64,000 bases of DNA, taken from contig JAFEBW010000050.1 of assembly GCA_018242445.1 (NCBI GenBank), forward strand, positions 35,044 to 99,043, written 5' to 3'. The notes beneath the pieces were generated by a model. The model was given only the letters and a program-made list of their open reading frames with translations, did not search any database and had not been told where the DNA came from. Shown here piece by piece: positions 3,345 through 27,026 of the stretch. A program made the position numbers and the translations under genes. Source of the stretch: Pseudomonadota bacterium. GTDB taxonomy: Bacteria; Pseudomonadota; Gammaproteobacteria; Xanthomonadales; Xanthomonadaceae. Position 1 is the first letter of the stretch, and each line of letters starts with the position of its first letter.

Positions 3345-3350
3345 GGGGCC

Positions 3351-3470
3351 GGGAATCGGGAATGGGGAATGGGGAATCGGAAAGACAGGCAGTGGGAATC
3401 GGCGGGATCCGGCGGTGGGAGTACTCGCTTCGGCTTCTACGATTCCCGATTCCCGATTCCCGATTCCCGG
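3351..3470. repeat. inverted arrays of tandem heptamers, (GGGAATC/G)x4 facing (GATTCCC)x4 with a roughly 60-nt loop, at the trpG/trpD junction
   Basis: Read directly. GGGAATC GGGAATG GGGAATG GGGAATC lies at 3351-3378 and GATTCCC x4 at 3441-3468. An extra GGGAATC lies in the loop at 3394-3400. Confidence 0.9.
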
Positions 3471-4045
3471 CCTTCAAGAAAATTCCCCAACAGCGCATGC
3501 CCGTGCTGGGTCAGGATCGACTCGGGATGGAACTGCACGCCCTCGATGCGCAGCTCGCGGTGGCGCAGGCCCATGATGGCCTCGATCTCGCCGTCGCCAT
3601 CCTGCGTCCACGCGGTGACCTCGAGGCAATCGGGCAGCGACTCGCGCTCGACCACCAGCGAGTGATAGCGCGTGGCCTCGAAGGGCGCTGGCAGGCCGGC
3701 GAACACGCCCTTGCCATCGTGGTGCACCGGCGAGGTCTTGCCGTGCATGATGTTCCCGGCACGCACCACCCTGCCGCCGAAGGCCTGCCCCAGCGACTGG
3801 TGGCCGAGGCACACGCCGAGGATCGGGATGCGCCCACCGAGTTGCGTGAGCACATCCAGCGACACCCCGGCATCGTCGGGTGTGCCCGGCCCGGGCGAGA
3901 TCACGATGTGCGATGGCGCGAGCGCCTCGATGCCGGCCACGTCCAGCGCATCGTTGCGCACCACCCGCACCTCCTGCCCCAGCTCGCCGAAGTACTGCAC
4001 GAGGTTGTAGGTGAAGGAGTCGTAGTTGTCGATCATCAGCAGCAT
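3437..4045 (-). CDS. trpG: anthranilate synthase component II (glutamine amidotransferase)
   Basis: [19 protein letters not shown]...GVCLGHQ...HGK...QFHPES is the class-I GATase triad region. The last 10 codons ([10 protein letters not shown]) are encoded by the heptamer array. Confidence 0.95.
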
Positions 4046-4048
4046 AAA

Positions 4049-4182
4049 CGACGTATCCGTCTGTTTTTCAAGGGATGCCAGGCGGCATGTTGGTCGCGAT
4101 ACCCGCATGGATACCCGCAATTTCGCTGGGTACCTCACACAGGCGTCCAGACCACGTCGGCGAGCCATTTTGGCACGTATCC
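4049..4182. promoter_or_regulatory. cluster of GGATAC/GTATCC hexamers including a tandem GATACCCGCA direct repeat (possible operator region)
   Basis: ACGTATCC occurs at 4051-4058 and 4175-4182. GATACCCGCA occurs at 4098-4107 and 4110-4119, and GGGTACC at 4128-4134. The region lies between the trpG start and the island HTH gene. Confidence 0.25.
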
Positions 4183-4327
4183 ACAAGCCGCCAAATAACG
4201 CCAGAGGCCTCCGTAATACCCGGAACCGCTGGGGCGATCTGTCGCAGCCCGGTCGCGCCTCAAACGAAGTTGCGCCAGAACTGGCTAGACTTGGCAAGCT
4301 GAAGCCTACAGGGGGCAGAGCTGCACC

Positions 4328-4537
4328 ATGACCGCAAGCGACGGAGACATCCTCACGCTCGATGAGGTGGCCGCCTATTTGAAGGCCGGCAAGCGCACGG
4401 TGTACCGGTTCGCGCAAAACGGCGAACTCCCCGCCTTCAAGCTCGGCGGCACCTGGCGGTTCCGTCGCTCCGAGCTCGAGCGCTGGATCGACGCCAACAG
4501 CAACCAGCACAAATCGACAGGCAAGGGACGCCGCTGA
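4328..4537 (+). CDS. small helix-turn-helix DNA-binding protein (excisionase/MerR-like HTH)
   Basis: [46 protein letters not shown] is the typical excisionase-family HTH. The stop overlaps the helicase ATG (TGATG). Confidence 0.8.
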
Positions 4538-7500
4538 TGGAACTCCTCGACAACATCAGCCACCTGTTCGGCGACGATCTCAAGCAGGCGCTCACGTCCG
4601 GGGCCAAGCTCAAGGTCGCCGCCTCCTGCTTCTCGATGTACGCCTACGAGGCGTTGAAAGCCGAGCTGGAGCAGATCGACGAACTGCAGTTCATCTTCAC
4701 CGCACCCACGTTCGTTGCCGACGAAGTCACCGACCAGGTGAAACGCGAACGGCGCGAATTCCATATCCCCAAGCTGGATCGCGAGCGCAGCCTCTACGGC
4801 AGCGAGTTCGAGATACAACTGCGCAACAAACTCACCCAGCGCGCCATCGCCCGCGAGTGCGCCGACTGGCTGCGGCGCAAGGCGAAGTTCCGCAGCAACC
4901 GCAGCAAGGCCCCCATGCAGCAGTTTGCCGGCGTCCAGGACGCTGCAACGGCAACGGCATACATGCCACTGCACGGCTTCACCGCGGTTGATCTTGGCTA
5001 CCAGCAAGGCAACGCCGTCTCCAACTTCGTCAACAAGATCGGCGAGCCCACCTACGCCACGCAGTACCTGAACCTGTTCGAGCAGATCTGGAACGACGCG
5101 GAGAAGCTTGAAGACGTCACGGCGCAAATCTGCCAGCACATCGCTTCCGTGTACCAGGAGAACGCACCGGAGAGCGTCTACTTCCTGATGCTCTACAACA
5201 TCTTCAACGAGTTCTTGGGCGACCTCGACGAAGACGTGCTGCCCAACGACCGCACGGGCTACCAGGACACGCTGGTCTGGAACAAGCTCTTCAACTACCA
5301 GCGTGATGCCGCCACCGGCATCATCAACAAGCTGGAGACCTACAGCGGCTGCATCCTCGCCGACAGCGTGGGCCTGGGAAAAACCTTCACGGCGCTGGCC
5401 GTCATCAAGTATTACGAGCTGCGCAACAAGTCGGTGCTTGTGCTCTGCCCCAAGAAGCTGGCGGACAACTGGCTCAACTACAACCGTAACCTGAAGACCA
5501 ACCTGTTCGCCAAGGATCGTTTCAGCTACGACGTGCTTTGCCACACCGATCTGAGCCGCACCAGCGGCGAATCCTTCGGCACCCCACTCAACCGCATCAA
5601 CTGGGGCAACTACGACCTGGTGGTGATCGACGAGTCGCACAACTTCCGAAACAACGATGCCGTGAAGGAGCGCGAGACCCGCTACCAGAAGTTGATGCGC
5701 AAGGTGATTCGCGAGGGCGTCAAGACCAAGGTGCTGATGCTCTCGGCTACGCCGGTCAACAACCGCTTCAACGACCTGCGTAACCAGCTTGCATTGGCCT
5801 ACGAAGGCGACTCGGAGAACCTCAACAAGAAGCTTCGCACCAGCAAGTCGGTCGAAGAGGTGTTCCGCAACGCGCAGCGGGCTTTCAACACCTGGTCGCA
5901 GCTGCCACCGGAGCAGCGCACGCCGCGCGCCATCCTCGACGCGCTGGACTTCGATTTCTTCGAGCTCTTGGACAGCGTCACCATCGCGCGCTCGCGCAAG
6001 CACATCCAGACGTTCTACGACACCCGCGACATCGGCCCTTTCCCGGAGCGCCGCAAGCCACTGTCGTTCCACTGCCCGCTGACCACGCGGGTGGATGTCA
6101 TGAGCTTCAACGACATTTTCGAGCAGCTCGCCAAGCTCAACCTCGCGATCTACGCGCCGCTCAGCTACATCCTTCCCAGCCGCATCAAGAAGTACGAGGA
6201 CATGTACGACACCCAGGTATCGGGTGGCGGCGGCGCGTTGCGCCAGATAGACCGCGAACAAAGCCTGAAGAAGCTGCTCACCGTCAACCTGCTCAAACGC
6301 CTGGAAAGCTCGGTCGCCGCCTTCCGGCTGACCTTGAAGATGTTGCAAGGCAACCACCAGCACACACTCGGCAAGGTCGAAGCATTCGGAACAAGCGGCG
6401 GCAAAGGCAGCATCACCGACCACACGGCGGCACTCGACAGCCTGGACGCGGAAGACGACGACTGGCTGGACGCCGACGGCAGCGACTTCAACGTAGGCGG
6501 CAAGATCAAGATCGACCTGGCCGACATGGATTTGCCGCGCTGGCAGTTCGACCTTGAGCGCGACCGCGATGTGATCGCCACGCTCTTCGCGGAGATGGAG
6601 AAGATCACGCCAGCGGATGACACCAAGCTCCAGCATCTGAAAGCACTTGTGCAGGGAAAGATCGCCCAGCCGATCAACCCCGGCAACAAGAAGGTGTTGA
6701 TCTTCACCGCCTTCGCCGACACCGCCGACTACCTCTACGCCAACCTGGCACCCGAGCTATGGGCCAACCATGGCCTGCACAGTGCCGAGGTGACTGGCAG
6801 CACGCGACCCAAGTCCACCCTTGCCACGAAGTACGACTTCCAGGAACTGCTGACGTTGTTCTCGCCACGGGCCAAGGAAAAAGCCGTGGTATTGCCGCAA
6901 GAGCCGGCAGAAATCGACCTGCTCATCGGCACGGACTGCATCTCCGAAGGCCAGAACCTGCAGGACTGCGACTACCTGGTCAACTACGACATCCACTGGA
7001 ACCCGGTGCGCATCATCCAGCGCTTCGGCCGCATCGACCGCATCGGCTCGCCAAACGCCAGCATCCAATTGGTGAACTACTGGCCCGACATCTCGCTGGA
7101 CGAATACATCAACCTCAAGGAACGCGTCGAAAGCCGCATGACCATCGTCGACGTCACCGCCACCGGCGACGACAACGTGCTCTCGGCCCAGGCCAACGAC
7201 GTCGCCTATCGCAAGGAACAACTGCGGCGCCTGCAGGAAGAAGTGATCGAACTCGAAGACCTCAAGGCCGGCGTGTCGATCACCGACCTTGGCCTCAACG
7301 ACTTCCGCATGGATTTGCTGAACTACGTGAAGGCACATGGCGAGCTGAAGAGTGCCCCGAACGGCCTGCATGCCGTGGTACCTGCCAACACCCAGCTTGG
7401 CTTGCCGCCCGGCGTGCTCTTCACCCTGCGCAATCGCAATGCGGGTATCAACCCGGAAGCCAACCAACCCCACCACAACCGCCTGCACCCGTACTACCTG

Positions 7501-7830
7501 ATCTATATCGGGCGCGACGGTAACGTCGTCCACGACCAGACCGAAGTGAAGCGTTTGCTCGACCTGGCTCGCACTGCCTGCAAGGGGAAGAGCGAGCCTT
7601 GCCTCCCGCTGTGCGAGCAGTTCAACCGCGAGACGTCAGACGGCCGCAACATGCAGGCCTACTCGGATCTGCTGGGCAAGGCCATCCGCTCGATGATCGA
7701 CGTCAAGGAAGAGCGCGACATCGACAGCCTGTTCTCGGGCGGCAAGACCACGGCGCTGACCCAGACCATCGCCGGGCTGGACGACTTCGAGCTGATTGCC
7801 TTCCTCGTAATAGTGAGTGGTGAAAAGTGA
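4537..7830 (+). CDS. SNF2-family helicase with an N-terminal extension of about 270 aa (PLD-like architecture suspected, no HxK motif seen)
   Basis: Helicase motifs are ADSVGLGKT (I), [10 protein letters not shown] (II), MLSATPVNN (III) and [39 protein letters not shown] (V/VI). The stop TGA at 7828-7830 lies inside the heptamer arm. Confidence 0.9.
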
Positions 7831-8241
7831 AGAGTGAGATGGTGAGCGACATCAGGGAGCGGACGTTTGGTTTTGCCACGCGGGTGGTGAGGCTGTGCCA
7901 AAAGCTGGATGCCGCACCGGGAGTATCGCGGACGGTGGCAAACCAGTTGTTGCGTTCGGGCGCCTCCATCGGAGCCAACGTGGAAGAGGCGCATGGCAGT
8001 CAGAGCAAGGCCGATTTCACCGCAAAAATGTACATCGCCTGCAAGGAGTCCCGCGAAACGCACTACTGGCTGCGCCTGCTGGTCGCCACAGACATCGTCC
8101 CAGAAGCCAAGCTCGCCCCGTTACTCGACGAGTCCAATCAGCTCATCGCCATCCTGACCGCGATCGTGAAGACCGCCCGAAATGGTCGCGCCCCTCATGC
8201 CTGACCATTTCACTTCTCACCCTTCACTCTTCACTTTTCCC
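7809..8241 (+). mobile_element. cassette made of a purine-rich heptamer arm, a four-helix-bundle gene and a pyrimidine-rich heptamer arm, inserted at the helicase/DUF4391 junction
   Basis: The left arm is AATAGTGAGTGGTGAAAAGTGAAGAGTGAGATGGTGAG (7809-7846). The right arm is CCATTTCACTTCTCACCCTTCACTCTTCACTTTTCCC (8205-8241) and is its approximate reverse complement. The mobile nature is inferred. Confidence 0.5.
7839..8204 (+). CDS. four-helix-bundle protein (23S rRNA intervening-sequence protein family)
   Basis: ANQLLRSGASIGANVEEAHGSQSKADFTAKMYIACKESRETHYWLRLL matches the family core (xQLxRSxxSIxANIxEGxxxxSxxDFxxxLxIAxxSxxEtxyWL). The ATG at 7839 is preferred to the GTG at 7827. Confidence 0.85.
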   Translation: MVSDIRERTFGFATRVVRLCQKLDAAPGVSRTVANQLLRSGASIGANVEEAHGSQSKADFTAKMYIACKESRETHYWLRLLVATDIVPEAKLAPLLDESNQLIAILTAIVKTARNGRAPHA

Positions 8242-8880
8242 AAAAGCTCCGCTTTTGGGAAAGTTCTGCCCAAGGCCAAGCTTTACGAGCACGGCAGTGT
8301 CGGAACGCGCCTCAAAGGCCTCTTCACCGAGCAGGTCGAACAGATCGTCTGGCAGTACAAGCTGGCGCCGGAGACGATCAACCTGCCAGCATCGCCCGGC
8401 GTGCCGGAGATCCAGGTCTTCAGCGTGCGACTCCGGGCACCCGAGTTGCATCATGACGTGCTTCGCGGCATGGACAGCGCTATCGCGTTCCCGATCCTCT
8501 TCGAACTGAACTTCGAGGATCGCATCCAGGTCGTCGCTGCCTACAAGCGCCCCAGCGAGGCCGACGCTTCCCGCTGGGTACGCTCCGACTACTTCGCCTC
8601 GGAGTGGCTGCCCACAAGCAGCCCACGCAAGGCCATGCCCACCGCATTGAGCTTGGGCAATCTGTACCAGCAGGTGTTGTCGGCGCTGATCGCCCTACCT
8701 GCCCGGCCAAGCGAGTCTCTGCCCGCATTGGTCGAACGCGCCAGCCAGGTGCAGGCGCTCCGCCATGAGCTGCACAAGGTCGTCTCAAGGCTTGAGAAGG
8801 AAAAGCAGTTCAATCGCAGGGTAGAGATCAATGCGTCGGTGCGAGAGTTGAAGCACAACCTGAAATTGCTGGAGGGATAG
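8197..8880 (+). CDS. DUF4391 domain protein
   Basis: The N-terminus is [19 protein letters not shown]. The length of about 228 aa and the position next to an SNF2 helicase and a methyltransferase are typical of DUF4391. The start is uncertain (8182 or 8197), and both candidates lie inside the cassette. Confidence 0.75.
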
Positions 8881-8882
8881 CC

Positions 8883-10292
8883 ATGCATGAAATCATCTGC
8901 CCGCACTGCCAGAAGGCGTTCAAGGTCGACGAGGCCAGCTACGTGAGCATCCTGAAGCAGGTTCGCGACAAGGAGTTCGACAAGCAGCTGCATGAGCGGT
9001 TGGAACTCGCCGAGCGAGACAAGCTCAATGCGGTTGAGCTTGCCCAAGCCAAGCTTGCTGGTGAGCTGCAGAAGGAGGCTTTGGCCAAGGATGCCGAGAT
9101 CAAGGAACTGAAGGCCAGGCTGGACGCCGGTGACGCCTCGCGCAAGCTGGCCGTCACCGAGGCGTTGAGCCCGGTCGAGAAGGAGCGCAACCAGCTCGCC
9201 AACGAACTGGCGCAAGCCAAGCGTGACCTGGAGTCTGCGGCCAAGCTGGCCGAAGCAACGCGAGCAAACGCCGTTCAGACAGCCGCCGCCGCGAAAGACG
9301 CCGAAATTCAGGCGCTGCAGGCCAAGCTCGACGCTAGTGAAGTTGCCCAACAACTTGCGGTCAACAGGGCGGTCAGCGTCGTCGAGAATGAGCGCAACGC
9401 GCTGCAGAGCGGCCTGCAGCGTGCCGAGCTTGAAAAGGACCTGGCCGAGAAGTCCCTGAAGGAAAAGTACGAAACCCAGCTCAAGGATCGTGAGGAGACC
9501 ATTGAGCGCCTCAAGGACATGAAAGCCAAGCTGTCGACCAAGATGATCGGCGAGAGCCTTGAGCAGCACTGCGAGACCGAGTTCAACCGCATCCGCGCCA
9601 CCGCGTTCCCACACGCCTACTTCGAGAAGGACAACGACGCGCGCAGCGGCAGCAAGGGCGACTTCATCTTCCGCGACCAAGCCGAAGACGGCACCGAGAT
9701 CGTCTCCATCATGTTCGAGATGAAGAACGAGAACGACGAGACCGCCAGCAAGAAGAAGAACGAAGACTTCCTGAAAGAGCTCGACAAGGATCGCGCGGAA
9801 AAAGGCTGCGAGTACGCCGTGCTGGTTTCCCTGCTGGAGCCGGAGAGCGAGCTTTACAACACCGGCATCGTCGACGTGTTCCACCGCTACCCGAAGATGT
9901 ACGTCGTGCGGCCGCAGTTCTTCATCCCCATCATCACGCTGCTGCGCAATGCGGCCACCAAAGCCTTGGCCTACAGGCAGGAACTCGCGCTGGTTCGGGC
10001 ACAGAATCTCGACATCACGCGATTCGAGAAGCAGCTGGACGAGTTCAAGGGGGCGTTCGGCAGGAACTGGCGGCTTGCCTCCGACGGCTTCGAGGAGGCC
10101 GTCAAGCGGATCGACGAAGCCATCAAGGATCTGGAGAGGACCAAGGACGCCCTCCACAAATCTGCGAACAATCTGCGGCTTGCGAACGACAAGGCTGAAG
10201 ATCTGACGATCAAGAAATTGACCCGGGGCAACCCGACGATGGCGGCGAAGTTCGCCGAACTGAAAGACCACGATGCTTCCGGCGAAGCATGA
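8883..10292 (+). CDS. DUF2130 protein (N-terminal CxxC, long coiled coil, C-terminal PD-(D/E)xK-like motif)
   Basis: It has the [18 protein letters not shown]-terminus, about 200 aa of Ala/Glu/Lys/Gln-rich heptad-like sequence, and then GDFIF...x15...FEMK. Confidence 0.75.
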
Positions 10293-10309
10293 ACCCAAGG
10301 AAGCACACG

Positions 10310-12250
10310 ATGGACAAGTTGAAGATGCACTCGCCTGACCTCAGCCAGGACAACCTCGCGCGGCTACGCGAGATGTTTCCGGGCTGCGTGACGGAAGCAA
10401 GAGTGAAGGGTGAAGAGGGAAAAGTGAAATATGCGGTGGACTTCGACCTGCTGCGGCAGGAGCTGTCCGGGTTGCTGGTGGAGGGGCCGCAGGAGCGCTA
10501 CCAGCTCGACTGGCCGGGCAAGCGCGAAGCGCTGCTGACGGCCAATGCGCCGATTGCCAAGACCTTGCGCCCGGTGCGCGACGAAAGCGTGGACTTCGAC
10601 ACCACCAAGAACCTGTTCATCGAAGGCGACAACCTGGAGGCGCTCAAGCTGCTGCAGGAGACGTATCTGGGCAAGGTGAAGCTGATCTATATCGACCCGC
10701 CGTATAACACCGGCCGAGACTTCGTTTACGACGATGACTTTGCCGAGGATGCAGAGTCGTTCCTTGTGAAGTCGCTCCAGCAAAGCACGACGGGCGAAAA
10801 GCTTGTGGCAAACCCGGAGTCGAATGGCAGGTTTCACTCCGACTGGCTTTCCATGATGTATGCACGAACGCGTCTAGCAAAAAGTCTCCTGACCGACGAT
10901 GGAATTTTTCTCGCTTCGATTGACGATGGCGAGGTATCTAACCTACGGAAGGTCTGCGATGAGATTTTCGGTGAAGAGCAATTTGCTGCTCAGATCATCT
11001 GGAAAAAGCGCAATACACCGCCAAACGACAAGATCATCGGTGCCCAGCACGACTACATCTTGCTTTATGTAAAGAATGGCCTCTCTGGAATTAACCTCCG
11101 GCCAAGATCGCAGGATCAGATAGACCGTTACAAGAATCCAGACAATCACCCCAAAGGGCCATGGGTCGCCGGCGACCTCACCGGCAACGTGAAGGGCGGA
11201 CGTTACTCAGCCGCGCTGCATTACCCAATTAAAAACCCGAATACAGGGGAGCAATTCTATCCAGCCAATAACGGGAACTGGCGATTTAATAAAGAGAAAA
11301 TTGAGCAACTTATCTCCGAAGACGCAATTTATTTCGGAAAGGATGGCAAACAAGCCCCGAAACTTAAGCGCTTTCTCTCCGACGTGAAGGATGGCACTAC
11401 ATGGACATCCCTCTGGGATTTCGCACCATTCAACACATCCGGATCGAACGAGATGGGCGAAATTTTCGGCAACTCAACTCTCTTTGAGAACCCTAAGCCC
11501 GTTGGCCTACTCGAACATGTGATTGAGCTTGGTGCATCACCGGGTTCAATCGTAGTCGACTTCTTTGCTGGCACATCTACAACTGCACACGCCGTAATGA
11601 GGAAAAACGCTGAGGACAATGGCAATCGCCGCTTCATCATGGTGCAGTTGCCGGAGGCTTGCGCCAAGGATTCGGAGGCATTCAAGGCGGGCTACGCGAC
11701 AATCGCCGAGGTAAGTAAGGACCGCATCCGCCGCGCCGGTAAGAAGATCAGCGATGGCGGCTCACAGGTTGACATCGGCTTCCGCGTCCTCAAGATCGAC
11801 ACCTCCAACATGGCCGATGTGTTCTACACCCCCGACGCCGTTAGCCAAGGTGACCTGCTCAATGCAGTGGACAACATCAAGCCCGACCGCAGCGCCGAAG
11901 ACCTGCTGTTCCAGGTGATGCTGGACTGGGGCGTGGATCTTTCGCTCCCTGTCGGGCGCGAAAGAATAGTGAAGAGTGAAAATGGAATGGTGAAGTTCGA
12001 GCCGATAGCGCCAGAAGATTTCACTTCTCACTTTTCACCATTCACTCTTCTAACGGTTGACGGCAACGCCCTAATCGCCTGTTTCGACAACGCCGGCAAC
12101 ATCGACGATGCGTTAGCCAAAGAGCTGGCCAAGCGCAAGCCCCTGCGCGCGGTGTTCCGCGATGCCGGCTTCAAGGACAGCACGGTGAAGATCAACATCG
12201 AACAGATCTTCAAGCTGCTCTCGCCGGGCACCGAAGTGAAGTGCCTGTGA
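10310..12250 (+). CDS. site-specific DNA methyltransferase, Type III Mod-like (beta-class N6A/N4C order)
   Basis: MDKLKMHSPDLSQDNLARL is a Mod-type N-terminus. Motif IV IYIDPPYNTG precedes motif I VVDFFAGTSTTAHAV. The SD AAGGAAG lies 6-7 nt upstream of the ATG at 10310. Confidence 0.9.
   Translation: MDKLKMHSPDLSQDNLARLREMFPGCVTEARVKGEEGKVKYAVDFDLLRQELSGLLVEGPQERYQLDWPGKREALLTANAPIAKTLRPVRDESVDFDTTKNLFIEGDNLEALKLLQETYLGKVKLIYIDPPYNTGRDFVYDDDFAEDAESFLVKSLQQSTTGEKLVANPESNGRFHSDWLSMMYARTRLAKSLLTDDGIFLASIDDGEVSNLRKVCDEIFGEEQFAAQIIWKKRNTPPNDKIIGAQHDYILLYVKNGLSGINLRPRSQDQIDRYKNPDNHPKGPWVAGDLTGNVKGGRYSAALHYPIKNPNTGEQFYPANNGNWRFNKEKIEQLISEDAIYFGKDGKQAPKLKRFLSDVKDGTTWTSLWDFAPFNTSGSNEMGEIFGNSTLFENPKPVGLLEHVIELGASPGSIVVDFFAGTSTTAHAVMRKNAEDNGNRRFIMVQLPEACAKDSEAFKAGYATIAEVSKDRIRRAGKKISDGGSQVDIGFRVLKIDTSNMADVFYTPDAVSQGDLLNAVDNIKPDRSAEDLLFQVMLDWGVDLSLPVGRERIVKSENGMVKFEPIAPEDFTSHFSPFTLLTVDGNALIACFDNAGNIDDALAKELAKRKPLRAVFRDAGFKDSTVKINIEQIFKLLSPGTEVKCL
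11965..12052 (+). repeat. cargo-less heptamer-array hairpin inserted in frame in mod
   Basis: AATAGTGAAGAGTGAAAATGGAATGGTGAAG ... TTTCACTTCTCACTTTTCACCATTCACTCTTC. The arms are reverse-complementary and are translated as IVKSENGMVKFEPIAPEDFTSHFSPFTL. Confidence 0.8.
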
Positions 12251-12259
12251 GGGAGTGCC

Positions 12260-13924
12260 ATGGAGAAGACTGAGCTGACGCAGCTGCTGGAAAGCCTGAT
12301 CGCCACCTGGGAGAACGAGGTGGTGGAGTTCAAGCAGGCCGGCAGCGACTACAGCACCGACGACATCGGCAAGTATTTTTCCGCGCTGGCCAACGAGGCC
12401 AACTTGCGCGGGGCCGATGCCGGCTGGCTGGTGTTCGGCGTGAACAACAAGACGCGCCGCATGGTGGGCACGGACTACCGCCCGCAGGCTGCGCGGCTGC
12501 ACGCGCTCAAGATGCAGATCACCGAGAACGCCGAGCCGCGCATCAGCTTTCGCGATATCCACGAGTTGAGCCATGCCGATGGCCGCGTGCTGCTGTTCGA
12601 GATACCGGCAGCCCCACTCGGCATACCCATTGCCTGGAAGGGCCACTACTACGCCCGCGCTGGCGAAAGCCTGATCTCGCTGTCGCTGGACAAGCTGGAT
12701 GGCATCCGCCGCCAGACTCTGGCGCAGGACTGGACGGCGCAAGTCGTGCCTGGTGCGACCCTGGCCGACCTGGATGAAACCGCGCTGCGCAGGGCGCGTG
12801 AATCGTTTGCCAGCAAGTACGCGAACCGGGTTGCGCTCAGCGAAGTGCTGGGCTGGCCCATCAACACCTTCCTCGACCGGGCGCGGTTGACGCAGGACGG
12901 GCAGCTCACCCGCGCAACGCAGTTGCTGCTGGGCAAGCGCGAGTCGGCGTATCGCCTGTCGCCCCACCCCGCGCAACTGACATGGAGCCTGGTGGGCCAG
13001 GAGCGCGCCTACGAGCATTTCGGCCCGCCCTTCCTGCTGAGCACCACTCGCCTGTACCAGCGCATCCGCAACATCCAGTTGCGCATCCTGCCGCAGGACG
13101 AACTGGTGCCCGTGGAAGTGGCCAAGTACGACCAGAAGATCGTGCTGGAAGCCTTGCACAACTGCATCGCTCACCAGGACTACACGCGCCACGGCCGCGT
13201 GGTGGTGACGGAGCAACCCGACCGGCTGGTGTTCGAGAACGAGGGCGGCTTTTACGAGGGCAGCCCCGACGACTACATCACCGGCACCAAGCTTCCCCGG
13301 CGCTACCGCAACCCATTCCTCGCCCAGGCGATGGCCGAGCTGAACATGATCGACACCATGGGCTACGGCATCCACGACATGTACGTGCGCCAGGCGCGGC
13401 GCTACTTCCCGATGCCGGACTACGACCTTGGCGAAGCCGGGGCCGTGAAGATGACGATCTACGGCGGTGTGGTCGATCCGGCTTATAGCCGGTTGCTGAT
13501 CCAGCGCACCGATCTGCCGCTGGCGGACGTGCTGGCGCTGGATCGCGTGCAGAAGAAGCTGTCGATTCCAGACGAGGCCGCTGCGCGCCTACGCAAGGGC
13601 AGACTGATCGAGGGCCGCAAGCCGAACTACTTCGTGTCTGCCGAGGTGGCGACGGCCACGGACAGCAAGGTCGACTACATCCGCACGCGCCCTCAGGACG
13701 ACGAGTTCTACGCCAAGCTGCTCGTCGACTACTTGGAAAAGTTTGGCGAGGCCACGCGCACCGAGATCAACAAGCTGCTGCTGGACAAGCTCAGCGACGC
13801 GCTGGACGAGCAGCAAAAGTACAACAAGGTCAGCAATCTCCTCACCAATCTGCGCCGCCGTGGAGTTATCCGCAACGCTGGCGTCGACAGCGCGCCGCGC
13901 TGGGTACTTGCAGAGACGAATTAG
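12260..13924 (+). CDS. AlbA_2 (Schlafen-like DNA-binding) plus ATPase-like/wHTH protein, often annotated as ATP-binding protein or putative transcriptional regulator
   Basis: The N-terminus ENEVVEFKQAG...IGKYFSALANEANLRGADAGWLVFGV is typical of AlbA_2. The central NCIAHQDY...GGFYEG resembles the HATPase_c_4 region. The SD GGGAG lies upstream. Confidence 0.75.
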   Translation: MEKTELTQLLESLIATWENEVVEFKQAGSDYSTDDIGKYFSALANEANLRGADAGWLVFGVNNKTRRMVGTDYRPQAARLHALKMQITENAEPRISFRDIHELSHADGRVLLFEIPAAPLGIPIAWKGHYYARAGESLISLSLDKLDGIRRQTLAQDWTAQVVPGATLADLDETALRRARESFASKYANRVALSEVLGWPINTFLDRARLTQDGQLTRATQLLLGKRESAYRLSPHPAQLTWSLVGQERAYEHFGPPFLLSTTRLYQRIRNIQLRILPQDELVPVEVAKYDQKIVLEALHNCIAHQDYTRHGRVVVTEQPDRLVFENEGGFYEGSPDDYITGTKLPRRYRNPFLAQAMAELNMIDTMGYGIHDMYVRQARRYFPMPDYDLGEAGAVKMTIYGGVVDPAYSRLLIQRTDLPLADVLALDRVQKKLSIPDEAAARLRKGRLIEGRKPNYFVSAEVATATDSKVDYIRTRPQDDEFYAKLLVDYLEKFGEATRTEINKLLLDKLSDALDEQQKYNKVSNLLTNLRRRGVIRNAGVDSAPRWVLAETN

Positions 13925-13976
13925 TGTCGCCGCAGAGAACGTTTCAAGGAAAGCCATAACTATCAATTGCTTGCAT

Positions 13977-14003
13977 CTCTCTGCACGCCACCGATGCAGA
14001 GAG
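13977..14003 (+). other. 9-bp stem hairpin (CTCTCTGCA / TGCAGAGAG, 9-nt loop) in the only sizeable intergenic gap of the island
   Basis: Read directly. No T-run follows, so it is not a canonical terminator. Confidence 0.4.
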
Positions 14004-14031
14004 CCTGCAGAAAGAAGGCGCGTCAAAAGCC

Positions 14032-17000
14032 ATAAAGCTCAAGTTCAAGATCCAGCGTTACCAGACCGACGCCGTACAGTCCGTGGTGGATTGCTTCGAG
14101 GGCCAGCCACCAGCCAACGCCCGGGCCGTCAGCTACCGCATCGACCCCGGCAAGCTGGCCAAGGGACAGACCATCGGCAGCACGCTGAGTGCCGGCGACG
14201 GCTTCCGCAATGCCGACCTGCTGCTGACCGAGCAGGCCTTGCTGGCCAACGTGCAGAAGATGCAGCGCCACCAGAACCTGCCGATCTCCACCGCGCTGGT
14301 GAAGACCAAGATGTCGCCGGTCAATCTCGACATCGAGATGGAAACCGGCACCGGGAAGACTTATTGCTACATCAAGACCATGTTTGAGCTGAACCAGCGC
14401 TACGGCTGGAGCAAGTTCATCGTGGTGGTGCCCTCTATCGCCATCCGCGAGGGCGTGGCCAAGTCGCTGAAGATCACCGCCGACCACTTCCTGGAAACCT
14501 ACGGCAAGAAGGCCCGGTGCTTCATCTACGACTCCAAGCAGTTGCACCAGTTGGAGAGCTTCGCCTCCGACGCCGGCATCAACGTGATGGTCATCAACGT
14601 GCAGGCGTTCAACGCCGCCGGCAAGGACAACCGGCGCATCTACGAAGAGCTGGACGACTTCCAGTCGCGCAAGCCCATCGACGTCATCAGCGCCAACCGC
14701 CCCATCCTGATTCTGGACGAGCCGCAGAAGATGGAAGGCGACAAGACGCTCAAGTCGCTGGAGGCGTTCAAGGCCTTGATGGTGTTGCGCTACTCGGCCA
14801 CGCACAAGACCCGGCACAACCAGATTCACCGCCTGGACGCGCTCGACGCCTACAACCAGAAGCTGGTGAAGAAGATCGCCGTGCGCGGCATCACCATGAA
14901 GGGGCTGGCAGGCACCAACGCCTATCTCTACCTGCAGTCCATCGAGATTTCGACCAGAAAGCCGCCGGAAGCACGGCTGGAGTTCGAGCAGAAGCTGGCT
15001 GGCGGCAAGATCAAGCGCATCGTGCGCAAGCTCGGCAAGGGCGACAACCTGTTCACCCTCTCCAACGAATTGGACGAGTACCGCACCGGCTTCACGGTGG
15101 CGGACATCAATGCCAACACCGACACCTTGAGCTTCACCAACGGCGTGCAGCTCACCGTGGGCGATGCCACGGGCAACGTGAACGAATCAGCGCTGCGACG
15201 CATCCAGATTCGCGAAGCGATCAAGGCGCACTTCGACAAGGAAGAAGCCCTGTTCGCACAAGGCGTGAAGGTGCTCAGCTTGTTCTTCATCGACGAGGTG
15301 GCGAAGTACCGCGACTACTCAGCCGCCGACGAGAAAGGCGACTACGCCCGCATGTTCGAGGAGGAGTACGACGAAATAGTGAAGAGCGAATTGGGAAGAT
15401 TGAATGAGGAAAGTTCAATTCTCAATCTTCACCATTCACTCTTATATGCCGACTACCTGAAAGGCATCGCGGCGGAGAAAACCCACAGCGGCTACTTCTC
15501 CATCGACAAGAAGAGCAAGCGCCTGACCGACCCCACGGTGGCGAAACGCGGGGAGAACGCCGGGCTGTCGGACGATACCGATGCCTACGACCTGATCCTC
15601 AAGGACAAGGAGCGCCTGCTGTCGCTCGACGAACCAGTGCGCTTCATCTTTTCGCACTCGGCACTGCGCGAAGGCTGGGACAACCCCAACGTGTTCGTCA
15701 TTTGCGCGCTCAAGCACAGCGACAACACCGTCTCGCGGCGTCAGGAAGTGGGGCGCGGCTTGCGCCTTTGCGTGAACCAGCAAGGCGACCGCATGGACAA
15801 CCCGGTCACCGTGCATGACATCAACGTGCTGACCGTGGTGGCCAGCGAAAGCTACAAGGACTTCGTGGCCGGGTTGCAGGACGACATCAGCAAGTCGCTT
15901 GCCGAACGCCCACGCAAGGCCAACGAGGATTACTTCAAAGGCAAAGTGCTCAAGACCGAGCAAGGCGACGTGGACGTCACGCCAGCGATGGCGAAGCAGA
16001 TCTACAAATACCTGCTCAAAAACGACTACACCGACGATAACGACGGTATCGCCGATACCTATCACCAGGCACGCAAGGATGGTGCGCTGGCGGAGCTTCC
16101 TGCCGACTTGAAGCCCTACGCCGATCAGGTGGTCTTCCTCATCGACAGCGTCTTCAGCCAGGCGCTGCTCCCGGACATCGCCGACGGACGCAAGCCGAAG
16201 ACGAACCCGCTCAACGCCAACTTCGACAAGCAGGAATTCAAGGCGTTGTGGAACCGCATCAATCGCAAGGCGGCCTACAGCGTGCACTTCGACAGCGACG
16301 AACTGGTCGCGAAGGCCGCGGCCAAGCTCAACGACAAGGATGAAGGCTTGCGGGTCACCCCGCTGCAGTACGTCATCCAGGCCGGCACGCAGACAAAACA
16401 GGCCACCTACGACGACATCGCCGCCGGCAAGGGCTTCCGGATCACCGAGAGCGAAGTGGAGAACCACCGCGCCTCGATCCACTCGCTGGTGCGCTACGAC
16501 CTGATCGGCAAGCTGGCCGAGGGCACCCAGCTCACCCGACGCACCATCGCCGACATCCTGAAGGGCATGAACGTGGCAGTGTTCGCCCAGTTCAAGACCA
16601 ACCCGGAAAGCTTCATCGCCGAAGCCACTCGGCTCATCAACGAGCAGAAGGCCACCGTGATCGTCGAGCACCTGGCCTATGACCCGGTGGAAGAAACCTA
16701 CGACCTGGACATCTTCACCGCCAGCCAAAGCCGACAGGACTTCACGAACGCCGGCGGAAAGCTTCAGCACCACATCTACGACTACGTGGTCACCGACTCC
16801 AAGGTGGAGCGCCAGTTCGTAACCAATCTGGACACCAGCACCGACGTGGTGGTCTACGCCAAGCTACCCAGGGGCTTCCTCATCCCGACACCGGTAGGCG
16901 ACTACAACCCGGACTGGGCCATCAGCTTCAAGGAAGGCAAGGTCAAGCACATCTACTTCGTCGCCGAGACGAAAGGCTCGATGTCCAGCATGGAGCTACG

Positions 17001-17130
17001 CGAGATCGAGAAGACCAAGATCAAGTGCGCCCGCAAGTTCTTCGACGAAATGAATCACCGATACATACCCGAGAACGTCAAGTACGCGGTGGTGGATAGC
17101 TTCAGCAAGCTGATGGAGATCGTGAAGTAA
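14032..17130 (+). CDS. Type III restriction enzyme Res-like helicase-nuclease (start codon problematic)
   Basis: It has Walker [10 protein letters not shown], motif [10 protein letters not shown], and the C-terminal nuclease motif YNPDWAISF...FVAETKG (PD...ExK). The conserved N-terminus [25 protein letters not shown] is in frame from 14032, but that codon is ATA. The first standard start is the GTG at 14083. Confidence 0.85.
15375..15444 (+). repeat. cargo-less heptamer-array hairpin inserted in frame in res
   Basis: AATAGTGAAGAGCGAATTGGGAAGATTGAATGAGG ... TTCAATTCTCAATCTTCACCATTCACTCTTA, translated as [23 protein letters not shown]. Confidence 0.75.
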
Positions 17131-25503: not shown

Positions 25504-26553
25504 ATGAAACGCCCCATCCTCGGCATCGAAACCTCCTGCGATGAAACCGGGGTGGCGGTCTACGACCTCGCCACCGGTCTGCGCGCGCACGCCCTGTACA
25601 GCCAGATCGCCCTGCACGCGCAGTACGGCGGGGTGGTGCCGGAGCTGGCCAGCCGCGACCACGTGCGCAAGCTGTTGCCGCTGGTCCGGCAGACCCTCGC
25701 CGAGGCGGGCATCGGCGTGCGCGATCTGGGCGGCGTGGCCTACACCGCCGGCCCCGGGCTGGTCGGCGCGCTGCTGGTCGGCGCCGGCGTCGGCCGTGCG
25801 CTGGCATGGGCGCTGGAGGTGCCGGCGATCGGCGTCCATCACATGGAAGGCCACCTGCTGGCACCGCTGCTGGAAGATGCCGATCTCAAGCCGCCCTTCG
25901 TGGCGCTGCTGGTCTCCGGCGGGCACACGCAACTGATCGCCGTGCGCGCGATCGGCGACTACGAATTGCTCGGCGAAACCCTCGACGACGCCGCCGGCGA
26001 GGCCTTCGACAAGACCGCGAAACTGATGGGCCTGCCCTACCCCGGCGGCCCGCATCTGGCCGCGCTCGCCGAACGCGGCACGCCGGGCCGGTTCACGTTC
26101 TCGCGGCCGATGACCGATCGCCCCGGGCTGGACTTCAGCTTCTCCGGCTTGAAGACGCAGGTGCTGCTGGCATGGCAGAAATCCGACCAGTCCGATGTGA
26201 CACGCGCCGACATCGCCCGTGGTTTCGAGGACGCCATCGTGGATACGCTGGCGAGCAAATGCGAGCGCGCACTGGAGGCAGCCGGCATGGACAGTCTGAT
26301 CGTCGCCGGCGGCGTCGGCGCCAACCTGCGCCTGCGCGCGAAATTGCAGTCGCTGACGCAGCGGCGTGGCGGCCGCGTCAGCTTCCCGCGCCCGGCCTTC
26401 TGCACCGACAATGGCGCGATGATCGCCCACGCCGGCGCGCTGCGGCTGGCGGCGGGGCTGTACGATGGCGCGAGCGTGGACGTGCGTCCGCGCTGGGACA
26501 TGGCTGTTTTGCCCCCTTTGGGCGGCAAAACGGGAATAAGGAATAGGAAATAG
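25504..26553 (+). CDS. tsaD: tRNA N6-adenosine threonylcarbamoyltransferase
   Basis: [21 protein letters not shown]...HHMEGHLL...GGVGAN. It is divergent from rpsU. The last codons (TGIRNRK) are encoded by a heptamer array. Confidence 0.95.
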
Positions 26554-26675
26554 GGAGTGGGAAAGCGAAAAGCCTCGCGCTCCCGGATGGATTCTCACTC
26601 CCGGTATCCCTTGGTCAGATGCCTGCACGCACGCGCTTGTACCATTCCCCATTCCCCATTCCCCATTCCCGCCCC
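26532..26675. repeat. inverted arrays of tandem heptamers (GGGAATA AGGAATA GGAAATA GGGAGTG ... CCATTCC x4) at the tsaD/folB junction
   Basis: Read directly. The left arm is 26532-26566 and the right arm 26642-26675. An inner GGGAGTG/CACTCCC pair lies at 26553-26559 and 26596-26602. Confidence 0.9.
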
Positions 26676-27026
26676 ATGGATCGCGTCTTCATCGAAAACC
26701 TCGAGATCGACACCCTGATCGGCATCTACGACTGGGAGCGCAAGATCCGCCAGCCGCTGGTGTTCGACCTGGAAATGGGCTTCGACAACCGCGTGCCGGC
26801 CGGCAGCGACGACATCGCCGACACGCTCGATTACAAGGCCGTGAGCAAGCGCTTGATCGCGTTCGTGTCGGAATCAAGCTTTGGTTTGGTCGAAACGCTG
26901 GCCGAGCGCTGCGCGCAGATCGTGCTCGACGAGTTCCCGGTGGCATGGCTGCGCCTGAAATTGAGCAAGCCCGGCGCGGTGCGCGGCGCGCGCGCCGTGG
27001 GCGTGGTCATCGAGCGCAACCGCTGA
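26676..27026 (+). CDS. folB: dihydroneopterin aldolase
   Basis: MDRVFIENLEIDTLIGIYDWER...DYKAVSKRL...LVETLAE, about 116 aa. Confidence 0.9.
   Translation: MDRVFIENLEIDTLIGIYDWERKIRQPLVFDLEMGFDNRVPAGSDDIADTLDYKAVSKRLIAFVSESSFGLVETLAERCAQIVLDEFPVAWLRLKLSKPGAVRGARAVGVVIERNR

What the first reader, a model, noticed from the sequence alone, without database searches (positions are those of the whole stretch)
11965..12052. Cargo-less heptamer hairpin inserted in frame in the C-terminal region of mod
AATAGTGAAGAGTGAAAATGGAATGGTGAAG (11965-11995) and TTTCACTTCTCACTTTTCACCATTCACTCTTC (12020-12050) are reverse-complementary arms separated by about 25 nt. They are translated as IVKSENGMVKFEPIAPEDFTSHFSPFTL without a stop. 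The element begins with the same AATAGTGA boundary as the copies at 7809 and 15375. In all three copies the host frame reads ATA-GTG (Ile-Val), which is the only frame that avoids the TAG and TGA embedded in AATAGTGA. The 3' arm is also read in the same phase as in DUF4391 (FTSH). This looks like a MITE-like derivative of the four-helix-bundle cassette that is tolerated as a peptide insertion. It also creates a long RNA stem inside the methyltransferase mRNA.
Basis: seen in the sequence. Interest (0 to 1): 0.72.

Follow-up and report, generated by a model that had tools for sequence, protein, structure and literature searches.

The report
In-frame heptamer hairpin inside mod
An 88-base palindromic repeat element, built like the arms that flank a nearby "23S rRNA intervening-sequence" four-helix-bundle gene, sits in frame at the tip of a surface beta-hairpin of a Type III DNA methyltransferase, and the same loop has been hit independently at least seven times in related enzymes.

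Summary
Window 11965-12052 is an imperfect hairpin: 32-nt arms, a 24-25-nt loop, RNA MFE -30.5 kcal/mol, and 0 of 200 shuffles fold as well. It is made of degenerate GTGAAGA-type heptamers and is read through without a stop.

It is an insertion, not an ancestral segment. The closest Mod homologues (about 87% identity), including two syntenic islands (L001, L022), have a 15-residue beta-hairpin there. The window replaces 7 codons with 29. The insert has GC 0.41 against 0.55 for the gene.

Its arms share 14-23-nt blocks with the arms of four-helix-bundle (PF05635/TIGR02436) cassettes. One such cassette lies 4 kb upstream and is older; a third, cargo-less copy lies in res.

Seven non-redundant Mod lineages out of about 150 carry hairpins at this loop, in at least two heptamer flavours. 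Where it could be examined, the flavour matches that of the cassette in the same island.

Copies inside genes have exactly one open frame, the host's. The cleanly intergenic copies of the same flavour have stops in all six frames. So these copies are translated and have been filtered by selection.

How the element moves is unknown: no transposase and no clear target-site duplication were found. The closest analogues are Rickettsia palindromic elements, Correia elements and rRNA intervening sequences. I rate it a new variant of a known kind.

The parts
11965..12052 (+). c2: cargo-less heptamer-repeat hairpin element inside mod. It is translated as about 29 aa (IVKSENGMVKFEPIAPEDFTSHFSPFTLL) and replaces the 7 host codons QGKxVYF.
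   Evidence: hairpin; absent from close homologues; GC 0.41 vs 0.55; GC3 0.41 vs 0.69; one open frame of six
11965..11995 (+). c2 left, purine-rich arm (81% purine). The heptamers are degenerate, so no in-frame TGA remains.
11996..12019 (+). c2 loop, 24 nt, more GC-rich than the arms. No similarity to the ends of the cassette cargo was seen.
12020..12051 (+). c2 right, pyrimidine-rich arm. It shares 16 nt with the c3 right arm, 23 nt with the L019 cassette arm and 19 nt with the Rubritalea cassette end.
10289..12250 (+). Host gene: Type III Mod (N6_N4_Mtase). The real start is probably ATG 10310 (MDKLKMH). All methyltransferase motifs are intact.
   Evidence: MTase_III E 4.5e-222; EcoP15I Mod is the top structural match
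7809..8231 (+). c1: cargo-bearing cassette at the SNF2 helicase|DUF4391 junction. The left arm (7809-7838) supplies the helicase stop codon. The right arm (8205-8231) is translated as the new DUF4391 N-terminus. The arms form a terminal stem of about 25 bp around the ORF.
   Evidence: orthologous cassettes in L012/L022, L016 and L019
7839..8204 (+). Four-helix-bundle ORF (PF05635 23S_rRNA_IVP / TIGR02436), 121 aa.
   Evidence: (PDB 2rld)
15375..15445 (+). c3: second cargo-less hairpin of the same flavour, in frame in res. It is absent from L001, L009, L011 and L022.
10396..10431 (+). Left-arm-only heptamer patch inside mod at a second beta-hairpin tip ('site N'). It replaces GC-rich host codons and adds 2 aa.
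14083..17130 (+). res (ResIII helicase plus RE_endonuc), the host of c3.
4537..7830 (+). SNF2-type helicase whose last codons and stop now lie in the c1 left arm.
8182..8880 (+). DUF4391 gene whose start codon and first ~15 codons lie in the c1 cargo end and right arm (the Pfam DUF4391 match begins at residue 17).

Best explanation
c2 is a cargo-less member of a family of palindromic elements built from degenerate 7-nt units. The arm on the coding strand is purine-rich and the other is its complement. Full-length members of the family carry a PF05635/TIGR02436 four-helix-bundle gene between the arms, which is the same architecture as 23S rRNA intervening sequences.

Shown: an island that already held such a cassette (c1, shared with sister islands) later acquired c2 in mod, c3 in res and a half-patch at mod site N, all of the same flavour. 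c2 landed at the turn of a beta-hairpin in the conserved C-terminal domain of a Type III Mod.

Inferred: c2 persists because the Mod protein tolerates it there, it is a multiple of three, and its purine-rich arm has lost every in-frame TGA/TAG. The mRNA is therefore read through, and 29 residues replace 7 as an extension of the hairpin. In the transcript the arms can form an interrupted stem of about 30 bp. By analogy with rRNA intervening sequences and Correia elements, RNase III could cleave it, but this is untested. The stem is not an intrinsic terminator.

Unknown: how the copies are made. The pattern suggests spread in cis from the resident cassette, or templated repair using its arms: the flavour is island-specific, the events replace host DNA, and there is no transposase and no clear target-site duplication.
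For: Hairpin statistics.

Insertion: Mod homologues at 83-86% identity are 622 aa and lack the segment. blastn against the syntenic island L001 breaks at 11940/12056.

Timing: L022 shares the trp-locus position and the c1 cassette (helicase 91% identical, four-helix-bundle protein 85%). It is empty at mod site C, mod site N and the res site.

Foreign composition: GC 0.41 vs 0.55 and GC3 0.41 vs 0.69.

Family membership: shared arm blocks of 14-23 nt with c1-type cassettes and with a Rubritalea cassette. The same termini occur in hairpins and in one full cassette in Verrucomicrobiota, Bacteroidota and Bacillota MAGs.

Flavour matching of cassette and hairpin within one island: window, L016 and L022 (GTGAA type) and L011 (GGATGAA). 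The flanking chromosome uses GGGAAT(C/G) or GGGACTC.

Translation-level selection: all 9 copies inside genes have 0 stops in the host frame only. All 30 frames of the five cleanly intergenic copies (L002, L003, L005, L006, L007) carry a stop.

Structural tolerance: in the AF2 model the host strands are E555-562 and E586-590, the insert sits at the turn with pLDDT 70-85, and the flanks have pLDDT 92-93.

Recurrence: 7 independent gains at this loop by Fitch parsimony on an NJ tree of 160 Mods, while 144 of 160 keep the 15-residue loop.

No terminator or promoter signal at the hairpins. No Rfam family matches in the window.
Against: No mobility machinery was identified: the island has no transposase, integrase or reverse transcriptase. 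There is no clear target-site duplication. c1, c2 and c3 each replace 21-45 nt of host DNA, which is atypical of cut-and-paste insertion. Only the 64-kb window of the source genome is visible, so copies elsewhere that could be the true donors cannot be excluded. The c2 and c3 ends match a Rubritalea cassette end about as well as they match the resident c1. Translation, Mod activity and RNA cleavage are all inferred rather than measured. The AF2 model has moderate overall confidence (mean pLDDT 71).
Confidence: 0.72

Rival explanations
1. The hairpin was recruited for a function. At the RNA level it could be an RNase III or ribosome-pausing site that sets the ratio of Mod to the downstream Schlafen/Res products. 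At the protein level it could be an extra surface hairpin that changes Mod-Res or Mod-DNA contacts. On this view the repeated gains at one loop reflect positive selection rather than mere tolerance.
For: There are 7 independent gains at the same loop in about 150 Mods. Stems remain significant in all lineages, with z from -2 to -7. rRNA intervening-sequence stems and Correia inverted repeats are known RNase III substrates (PMC4990558; PMC10969869). The insert is modelled with fair confidence as ordered strands.
Against: The inserted peptides are not conserved between lineages: their flavours, lengths (22-49 aa) and sequences all differ. Most Mods (144 of 160) lack any insert. The closest sister islands work without it. 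Cleavage inside mod would destroy the mod message. No experimental data are available.
Confidence: 0.13
2. The hairpin is not a pre-formed mobile element. It arose on the spot by slippage of purine-rich codons plus fold-back (inverted) duplication, or by short gene-conversion patches copied from the arms of the resident cassette.
For: The events replace host DNA. A left-arm-only patch sits at site N, where the native sequence is among the top 4-13% of the gene for similarity to (GTGAAGA)n. Heptamer units change in concert in both arms at the trpG|trpD junction between the window and L022. The translated c3 left arm weakly resembles the replaced host peptide.
Against: c2 and c3 share defined termini and 16-23-nt blocks with each other and with cassettes in other genomes and phyla. 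Target similarity to the heptamer is not enriched at site C or the res site. Empty sites are not pre-existing DNA palindromes, with z from +1.5 to -1.6. In L009 and L011 the insertions are clean, between two intact host codons.
Confidence: 0.1
3. The segment is ancestral to this Mod family and was lost from the relatives.
For: Other, distant Mods also have extra residues at this loop.
Against: On the NJ tree the ancestral state is 'absent', with 7 changes. Every insert-bearing Mod has a closer insert-free relative than any insert-bearing one. The inserts differ in flavour. Composition is foreign. The syntenic islands L001 and L022 are empty.
Confidence: 0.02
4. The heptamer tracts act as a contingency (phase-variation) locus that switches mod on and off by 7-nt slippage, as simple repeats do in phasevarion mod genes.
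For: The repeat unit is not a multiple of three. Type III mod genes are classic phase-variable genes (general knowledge). Some homologues carry long tracts (L009 x10, L033 x9).
Against: In c2 the units are degenerate, with no two adjacent identical heptamers. Perfect triple units would carry a stop in every frame (direct reading of the sequence).
Confidence: 0.03

Closest known systems
Rickettsia palindromic elements (RPEs; Ogata et al. 2000 and 2002, as summarised in PMC10969869)
   Same: Both are short palindromic repeats inserted in frame into unrelated protein-coding genes, translated as extra peptide segments, and placed where the protein fold tolerates them.
   Different: This is a different sequence family in different hosts. 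RPEs are about 150 bp and encode a conserved peptide. Here the units are 7-nt repeats, intergenic copies have stops in all six frames, and copies inside genes look 'sanitised'. These elements also have cargo-bearing relatives with a PF05635 gene. No sequence comparison with RPEs was run.
23S rRNA intervening sequences with an S23p/four-helix-bundle ORF (Coxiella, Leptospira and others; PMC4990558)
   Same: The architecture of the parent cassette is the same: terminal inverted repeats form a stem of about 25-28 bp around a PF05635 ORF, with tandem heptamers next to the ORF start.
   Different: The location is a defence operon and protein-coding sequence, not helix 25 or 45 of 23S rRNA. c2 has no ORF. 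RNase III excision is untested here, and inside mod it would be destructive.
Heptameric GGGAATC repeats of Xanthomonas and GGGGA(C/T)T repeats of Nostoc (Rehm et al. 2015, PMC4692102)
   Same: Both are tandem 7-nt units, often in convergent pairs that can form stem-loops, lying close to or overlapping ORF ends. The window itself has such host-type hairpins at 3347-3472 and 26535-26670.
   Different: That paper interprets the repeats as G-quadruplex motifs. It found no association with mobile elements, and the term 'S23' does not occur in its text. c2 has a different, G-poor unit (GTGAAGA) that cannot form a G-quadruplex, and it lies inside a gene in frame.
Correia elements (CREE) of Neisseria and other bacterial MITEs
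   Same: All are small non-autonomous inverted-repeat elements. Their transcribed inverted repeats form hairpins cut by RNase III, and they can sit in or next to genes.
   Different: Correia elements have defined 26-bp inverted repeats, a TA duplication, an IHF site and promoters. Here the TA is ambiguous (it follows the right end of c2, c3 and L103 but not c1), the arms are heptamer arrays, and no transposase family is linked to them.
DGR accessory protein Avd (PF05635 relatives)
   Same: The cassette cargo belongs to the same Pfam family (PF05635; PMC10053308; PDB 2rld).
   Different: There is no reverse transcriptase, template repeat or variable repeat in the island. Any role of the cargo in copying the arms is speculation.

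Membership tests
MITE (non-autonomous derivative of a transposon) | Terminal inverted repeats and small size (under about 300 bp) | tested here: met
   The element is 88 nt with 32-nt arms, 75% complementary.
MITE (non-autonomous derivative of a transposon) | Target-site duplication of fixed length | tested here: inconclusive
   No direct repeat flanks c1, c2 or c3. TA follows the right end of c2, c3 and L103, and the left end reads A-TA-GTG, but c1 lacks it. All three window copies replace 21-45 nt of host DNA.
MITE (non-autonomous derivative of a transposon) | A related autonomous element that encodes a transposase and has the same ends | tested here: not met
   The only cargo-bearing relatives carry a 120-aa four-helix-bundle protein (PF05635), not a transposase. 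The island has no transposase.
MITE (non-autonomous derivative of a transposon) | Multiple dispersed copies in one genome | tested here: inconclusive
   There are three copies plus a half-patch within 8 kb and none in the other 50 kb. The rest of the genome is not available, and the source genome was not among the matches in genome contigs.
Rickettsia palindromic element-type coding palindromes | Palindromic repeat inserted in frame in a protein-coding gene and absent from orthologues | tested here: met
Rickettsia palindromic element-type coding palindromes | Sequence homology to an RPE family, or an element-encoded conserved peptide | tested here: not met
   No comparison with RPE sequences was run. 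The peptide criterion fails: peptides differ between copies (IVKSENGMVKFEP..., [14 protein letters not shown]..., GGRMKDE...) and intergenic copies are closed in all frames.
23S rRNA intervening sequence (IVS) | Inverted-repeat stem enclosing an S23p/PF05635 ORF | tested here: not met
   c2 has no ORF. The feature is met only by the parent-type cassette c1.
23S rRNA intervening sequence (IVS) | Located in helix 25 or 45 of 23S rRNA and excised by RNase III | tested here: not met
   The location is inside mod, and there is no rRNA in the window (Rfam). RNase III cleavage cannot be tested with these tools.
Xanthomonad-type heptameric repeat pairs (Rehm 2015) | Tandem 7-nt units in convergent (inverted) pairs | tested here: met
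   The arms are degenerate heptamer arrays. TRF detects the better-preserved relatives.
Xanthomonad-type heptameric repeat pairs (Rehm 2015) | G-rich unit GGGAATC able to form a G-quadruplex | tested here: not met
   The unit is GTGAAGA/GTGAATG. GGGAATC-type hairpins are present elsewhere in the window (3347-3472) but are a different flavour.
Phase-variable simple-sequence repeat in a Type III mod (phasevarion) | Perfect tandem tract, with a unit not divisible by 3, inside the ORF | tested here: not met
   The tract is degenerate. TRF reports no period-7 array at 11965-12052.
Type III R-M Mod subunit (host gene) | Beta-class N6-adenine methyltransferase motifs, a Mod-like fold and a linked Res | tested here: met
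   PF01555. PADLOC MTase_III E 4.5e-222 and REase_III E 0. DPPY and FxGxG columns are conserved. Foldseek top hits are EcoP15I Mod 4zcf and 6k0w.

The most novel reading that the evidence does not exclude
Heptamer-repeat hairpins are the propagating module of PF05635 (Avd-like four-helix-bundle) cassettes. On this reading they form a widespread class of mobile element with no transposase. The class includes the classical 23S rRNA intervening sequences and the 'G-quadruplex' GGGAATC repeats of xanthomonads. It would copy its arms in cis into nearby genes and gene junctions, perhaps with the four-helix-bundle protein recognising its own heptamer flavour. Defence-island proteins such as Type III Mod would repeatedly absorb it at beta-hairpin tips.
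Probability: 0.2. Interest if true: 0.85.

Novelty: new variant of a known kind. Interest (0 to 1): 0.62.

Why it matters
In-frame 'selfish' palindromes have so far been mainly a Rickettsia curiosity. This case shows the same phenomenon in free-living Gammaproteobacteria and several other phyla, inside defence genes.

It also ties three things that the literature treats separately: rRNA intervening sequences with the S23p ORF, heptameric repeats read as G-quadruplex motifs, and the orphan TIGR02436 genes that litter R-M operons.

The flavour match between a resident cassette and the younger cargo-less hairpins in the same island gives a concrete, testable handle on two old questions: how intervening sequences move, and what the non-DGR four-helix-bundle proteins do.

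There is a practical side too. These elements lengthen Mod and Res proteins, create new gene starts and stops at operon junctions, and will confuse annotation and domain calling.

Tried and rejected
(1) Microhomology targeting. I scored similarity of the empty target sites in L001 and L022 to (GTGAAGA)n. Site C falls at the 53rd-95th percentile and the res site at the 15th-55th. Only site N is mildly enriched (4-13%). Rejected as a general rule.

(2) A pre-existing DNA palindrome at the empty sites, i.e. insertion at hairpin tips. DNA folds of the empty sites give z from +1.5 to -1.6. Not supported.

(3) Identical nucleotide position of the cassettes at the helicase|DUF4391 junction as evidence for homing. 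A survey of about 45 helicase C-termini shows that 'FLV[IV]' is native and that native tails vary from 1 to 6 residues. Only 'same gene junction, three flavours' can be claimed.

(4) Vertical co-inheritance of the L011 and window cassettes. The four-helix-bundle proteins are 37% identical against 68% for the helicases, but DUF4391 is also only 40% identical, so this is inconclusive.

(5) Intrinsic terminator or promoter in the hairpins: none found.

(6) Known RNA family: no Rfam hit in the window.

(7) Locating the source genome. The genome contigs pattern scan did not return it. The pattern's gap limit also missed c2 itself (62 nt against a maximum of 60); c3 fits the pattern. The 100%-identical four-helix-bundle protein P0121 has no contig on record.

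(8) TRF as a detector. It misses the degenerate in-frame copies c2 and c3, so I used protein-alignment insertions instead.

(9) Literature search for the repeat strings and the peptides they encode: no relevant paper.
Full report
**Context.** The window has about 69% GC, apart from a 13-kb island (about 4000-17000, about 60% GC). The island encodes, in order:
- an SNF2 helicase (4537-7830)
- a PF05635 '23S rRNA intervening sequence protein' / TIGR02436 four-helix-bundle ORF (7839-8204)
- DUF4391 (8182-8880)
- DUF2130
- a Type III Mod (10289-12250)
- a Schlafen/AlbA_2 protein
- a Type III Res (14083-17130)

The Mod model's best structural matches are EcoP15I Mod (4zcf) and 6k0w.

**The observation.** Positions 11965-12052 are as described.
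- The two arms are 32 nt, 75% complementary and 25 nt apart.
- As RNA the 97-nt stretch folds at -30.5 kcal/mol, z -4.1, and none of 200 dinucleotide shuffles folds as well.
- The arms are degenerate 7-nt units of the GTGAAGA/GTGAATG type. The left arm is 81% purine and the right arm 16%.
- AATAGTGA occurs exactly three times in 64 kb (7809, 11965, 15375) against 0.15 expected.
- All three copies are read ATA-GTG. The right arm is read FTSH both in mod and in DUF4391.
- The only correction is an off-by-one in the start of the 3' arm.

**It is an insertion.**
- A search of 5.8 billion proteins found no Mod more than 87% identical. The best hits (83-86% identity) are 622 aa against 653.
- In alignments those hits read 'LPIEKKTIQGKEVYFVDGN' where the window reads 'LPVGRERI-VKSENGMVKFEPIAPEDFTSHFSPFTL-LTVDGN'.
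- One close homologue lies in a syntenic island of Rhodanobacter sp. (L001), next to the same trpG/trpD genes. blastn against it breaks at 11940 and 12056.
- A second syntenic island (L022, from a MAG) has a helicase 91% identical and is also empty here.
- At the codon level, 87 nt replace 21 nt (QGKxVYF), a net gain of 22 aa.
- The insert has GC 0.41 against 0.55 for the rest of mod, and GC3 0.41 against 0.69.

**Relation to the four-helix-bundle cassette.**
- At 7809-8231 the same kind of arms enclose the PF05635 ORF. The arms pair into a terminal stem of about 25 bp. This is the architecture described for the Coxiella 23S rRNA intervening sequence: a 28-bp inverted-repeat stem, an S23p ORF and tandem heptamers next to the start codon (PMC4990558).
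- The cassette replaced the overlapping stop/start junction seen in L001 (…VVLEAA*/MTRH…). The helicase now stops at a TGA in the left arm. DUF4391 now starts inside the end of the cargo and is read through the right arm.
- The closest relatives of the cargo (76-85% identity) all sit at this same helicase|DUF4391 junction with the same kind of arms. For the three intact islands (L012/L022, L016, L019) cargo identity tracks helicase identity (78-85% against 80-91%). So c1 is old and inherited with the island.
- c2, the hairpin c3 in res (15375-15445) and a left-arm-only patch at 10396-10431 are absent from L022 and L001. They are therefore younger and specific to this lineage.
- The c2 right arm is a mosaic of cassette-arm blocks: 14 nt identical to the window's c1, 23 nt identical to the L019 cassette, 16 nt to c3, and 19 nt (including the flanking TA) to the end of a Rubritalea profundi cassette that lies in a type I R-M region. 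c3 shares 22 nt with that Rubritalea end.
- A scan of 185,579 species genomes for 'AATAGTGAAGAG…CATTCACTCTT' returned seven loci in Verrucomicrobiota, Bacteroidota and Bacillota MAGs. One (L004) is a full cassette with (AGTGAAG)n and (CTCTTCA)n arms around a PF05635 gene.
- The 'cargo-less relative of the cassette' reading is therefore supported at the family level. c2 is not a simple internal deletion of the resident copy, because its loop shows no similarity to the ends of the cargo.

**Translated and filtered by selection.**
- A perfect (GTGAAGA)3 or (GGATGAA)3 carries a stop in every frame on the purine-rich strand (direct reading of the sequence).
- The five cleanly intergenic copies of the GTGAA flavour (L002, L003, L005, L006, L007) have stops in all six frames.
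- All nine copies found inside genes have zero stops in exactly one frame, and it is the host's.
- In c2 and c3 the right arms, which cannot encode stops, stay close to the family consensus and to each other. The left arms carry the deviations (…GAA AAT GGA ATG…, …AGC GAA TTG GGA AGA TTG…) that remove the in-frame TGA. Some of these are matched by complementary changes in the right arm.
- If the segment were removed from the RNA, no such constraint would be expected.

**Where it sits in the protein.**
- The AlphaFold model has mean pLDDT 71, with 85-95 in the C-terminal domain. It places the host residues on two antiparallel strands (E555-562 and E586-590).
- The 15-residue loop of the homologues is a beta-hairpin, and the insertion is at its turn. 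The inserted residues are modelled at pLDDT 70-85, partly as an extra strand.
- Site N, which holds the half-patch here and full hairpins in L010, L033 and P0019, is also the turn between two predicted strands (E34-38 and E46-50).

**Recurrence.**
- In a joint alignment of 160 Mods, 144 have the 15-residue loop.
- Seven non-redundant lineages carry long inserts at site C: the window, P0078/L010, P0087/L011, P0088, P0103/L009, L016 and L027. Each has a closer insert-free relative than any insert-bearing one.
- Fitch parsimony on an NJ tree gives 'absent' at the root and seven changes.
- At the DNA level, the six lineages whose DNA was retrieved all have heptamer hairpins at this site (P0088 is known only as protein). 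Their folds give z from -2 to -7. There are at least two flavours: GTGAA type in the window, L016 and L027, and GGATGAA/TTCATCC in L009, L010 and L011.
- Where the island could be examined, the hairpin flavour equals the flavour of the four-helix-bundle cassette in the same island. This holds for the window, L016 and L022 (which has an extra hairpin at 11487-11560) with GTGAA, and for L011 with GGATGAA.
- The adjacent chromosome uses another flavour: GGGAAT(C/G) in the window, and GGGACTC mixed with GGGAATC in L022.
- I tested two DNA-level explanations for the hot spot and found no support for either: similarity of the target to the heptamer and a pre-existing palindrome at the empty sites.
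- Tolerance at a beta-hairpin tip remains the simplest account.

**What is not known.**
- The island has no transposase, integrase or reverse transcriptase.
- No target-site duplication is evident. TA follows the right ends of c2, c3 and the Rubritalea cassette, but not c1.
- All three window copies replace host DNA, whereas L009 and L011 are clean insertions.
- The hairpins are not terminator-like or promoter-like and match no Rfam family.
- RNase III processing is a reasonable analogy to intervening sequences and Correia elements, but it is untested, and inside mod it would cut the message.

**Comparison with the literature.**
- In-frame palindromic insertions are known from Rickettsia (RPEs).
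- Intervening sequences with the S23p ORF and heptamers are known from rRNA.
- GGGAATC heptamer pairs of xanthomonads have been catalogued. They were interpreted as G-quadruplex motifs, no association with mobile elements was found, and 'S23' does not occur in that paper's text.
- Full-text searches for the repeat strings and the encoded peptides, and for PF05635 together with heptamers, found nothing that connects these three.

**Verdict.** I rate the element a new variant of a known kind. The open and potentially more important question is whether four-helix-bundle cassettes propagate their own arms.

Noticed in passing
window 10396-10431: A left-arm-only heptamer patch (AAGAGTG AAGGGTG AAGAGGG AAAAGTG AAA) lies inside mod at a second beta-hairpin tip. 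It replaces GC-rich host codons, adds 2 aa, and shares 13 nt with the L012 cassette left arm. Full hairpins occupy the same site in L010, L033 and P0019.
   Followed up: partly
window 15375-15445: A second cargo-less hairpin of the same flavour lies in frame in res. It replaces about 15 host residues with 26 and is absent from L001, L009, L011 and L022. Its right arm shares 22 nt with a Rubritalea cassette end.
   Followed up: yes
window 7809-8231: The four-helix-bundle cassette supplies the stop codon of the SNF2 helicase and the start codon and N-terminus of DUF4391. The same gene junction holds cassettes of three different heptamer flavours in other lineages (window clade, L011, L056).
   Followed up: yes
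window 3347-3472 (genes on the - strand): A host-flavour (CGGGAAT)n/(CGATTCC)n hairpin sits between trpG and trpD. The trpG ORF reads about 10 codons into an arm before a TAG. L001 has overlapping genes and no hairpin. L022 has the orthologous hairpin, but most units are changed to GGGACTC/GAGTCCC in both arms, which is concerted change of the unit.
   Followed up: partly
window 26535-26670: Another hairpin, (GGAATAG-like)n ... (CCATTCC)x4, ends 5 nt before the ATG at 26676. That ORF begins MDRVFIENLEIDTLIGIYDWE; I take it to be folB-like from memory, and this was not tested.
   Followed up: no
L039, L051, L068, L071 (Mod|next-gene junction); L056:1683-2120: PF05635 cassettes with their own heptamer arms also sit immediately downstream of mod in four other Type III loci. 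Operon junctions of R-M systems therefore seem to be a habitual home for these cassettes.
   Followed up: partly
L009:2024-2095, L011:5806-5831, L056:1707-1742, and empty junctions: The purine-rich arms look like tandem Shine-Dalgarno(+start) motifs (AAGGAGG, GGAAGGATGA, AGGAGTTAGGA-ATG). The native helicase|DUF4391 junction is CAGGAGGAAGGATGA in several of the empty islands (L026, L037, L048, L065).
   Followed up: no
L022:11487-11560: The sister island carries its own extra GTGAAGA-type hairpin at the 3' end of an accessory ORF that the window lacks.
   Followed up: partly
window 10289-10310 and 10743-11771: The mod start is probably ATG 10310 (MDKLKMH, as in all homologues). The central part of mod does not align with L022 at the DNA level, which suggests a different target-recognition domain.
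   Followed up: no
L001:6691-8571: The Rhodanobacter island has an extra OLD-like AAA/TOPRIM gene between DUF4391 and DUF2130 that is absent from the window.
   Followed up: no
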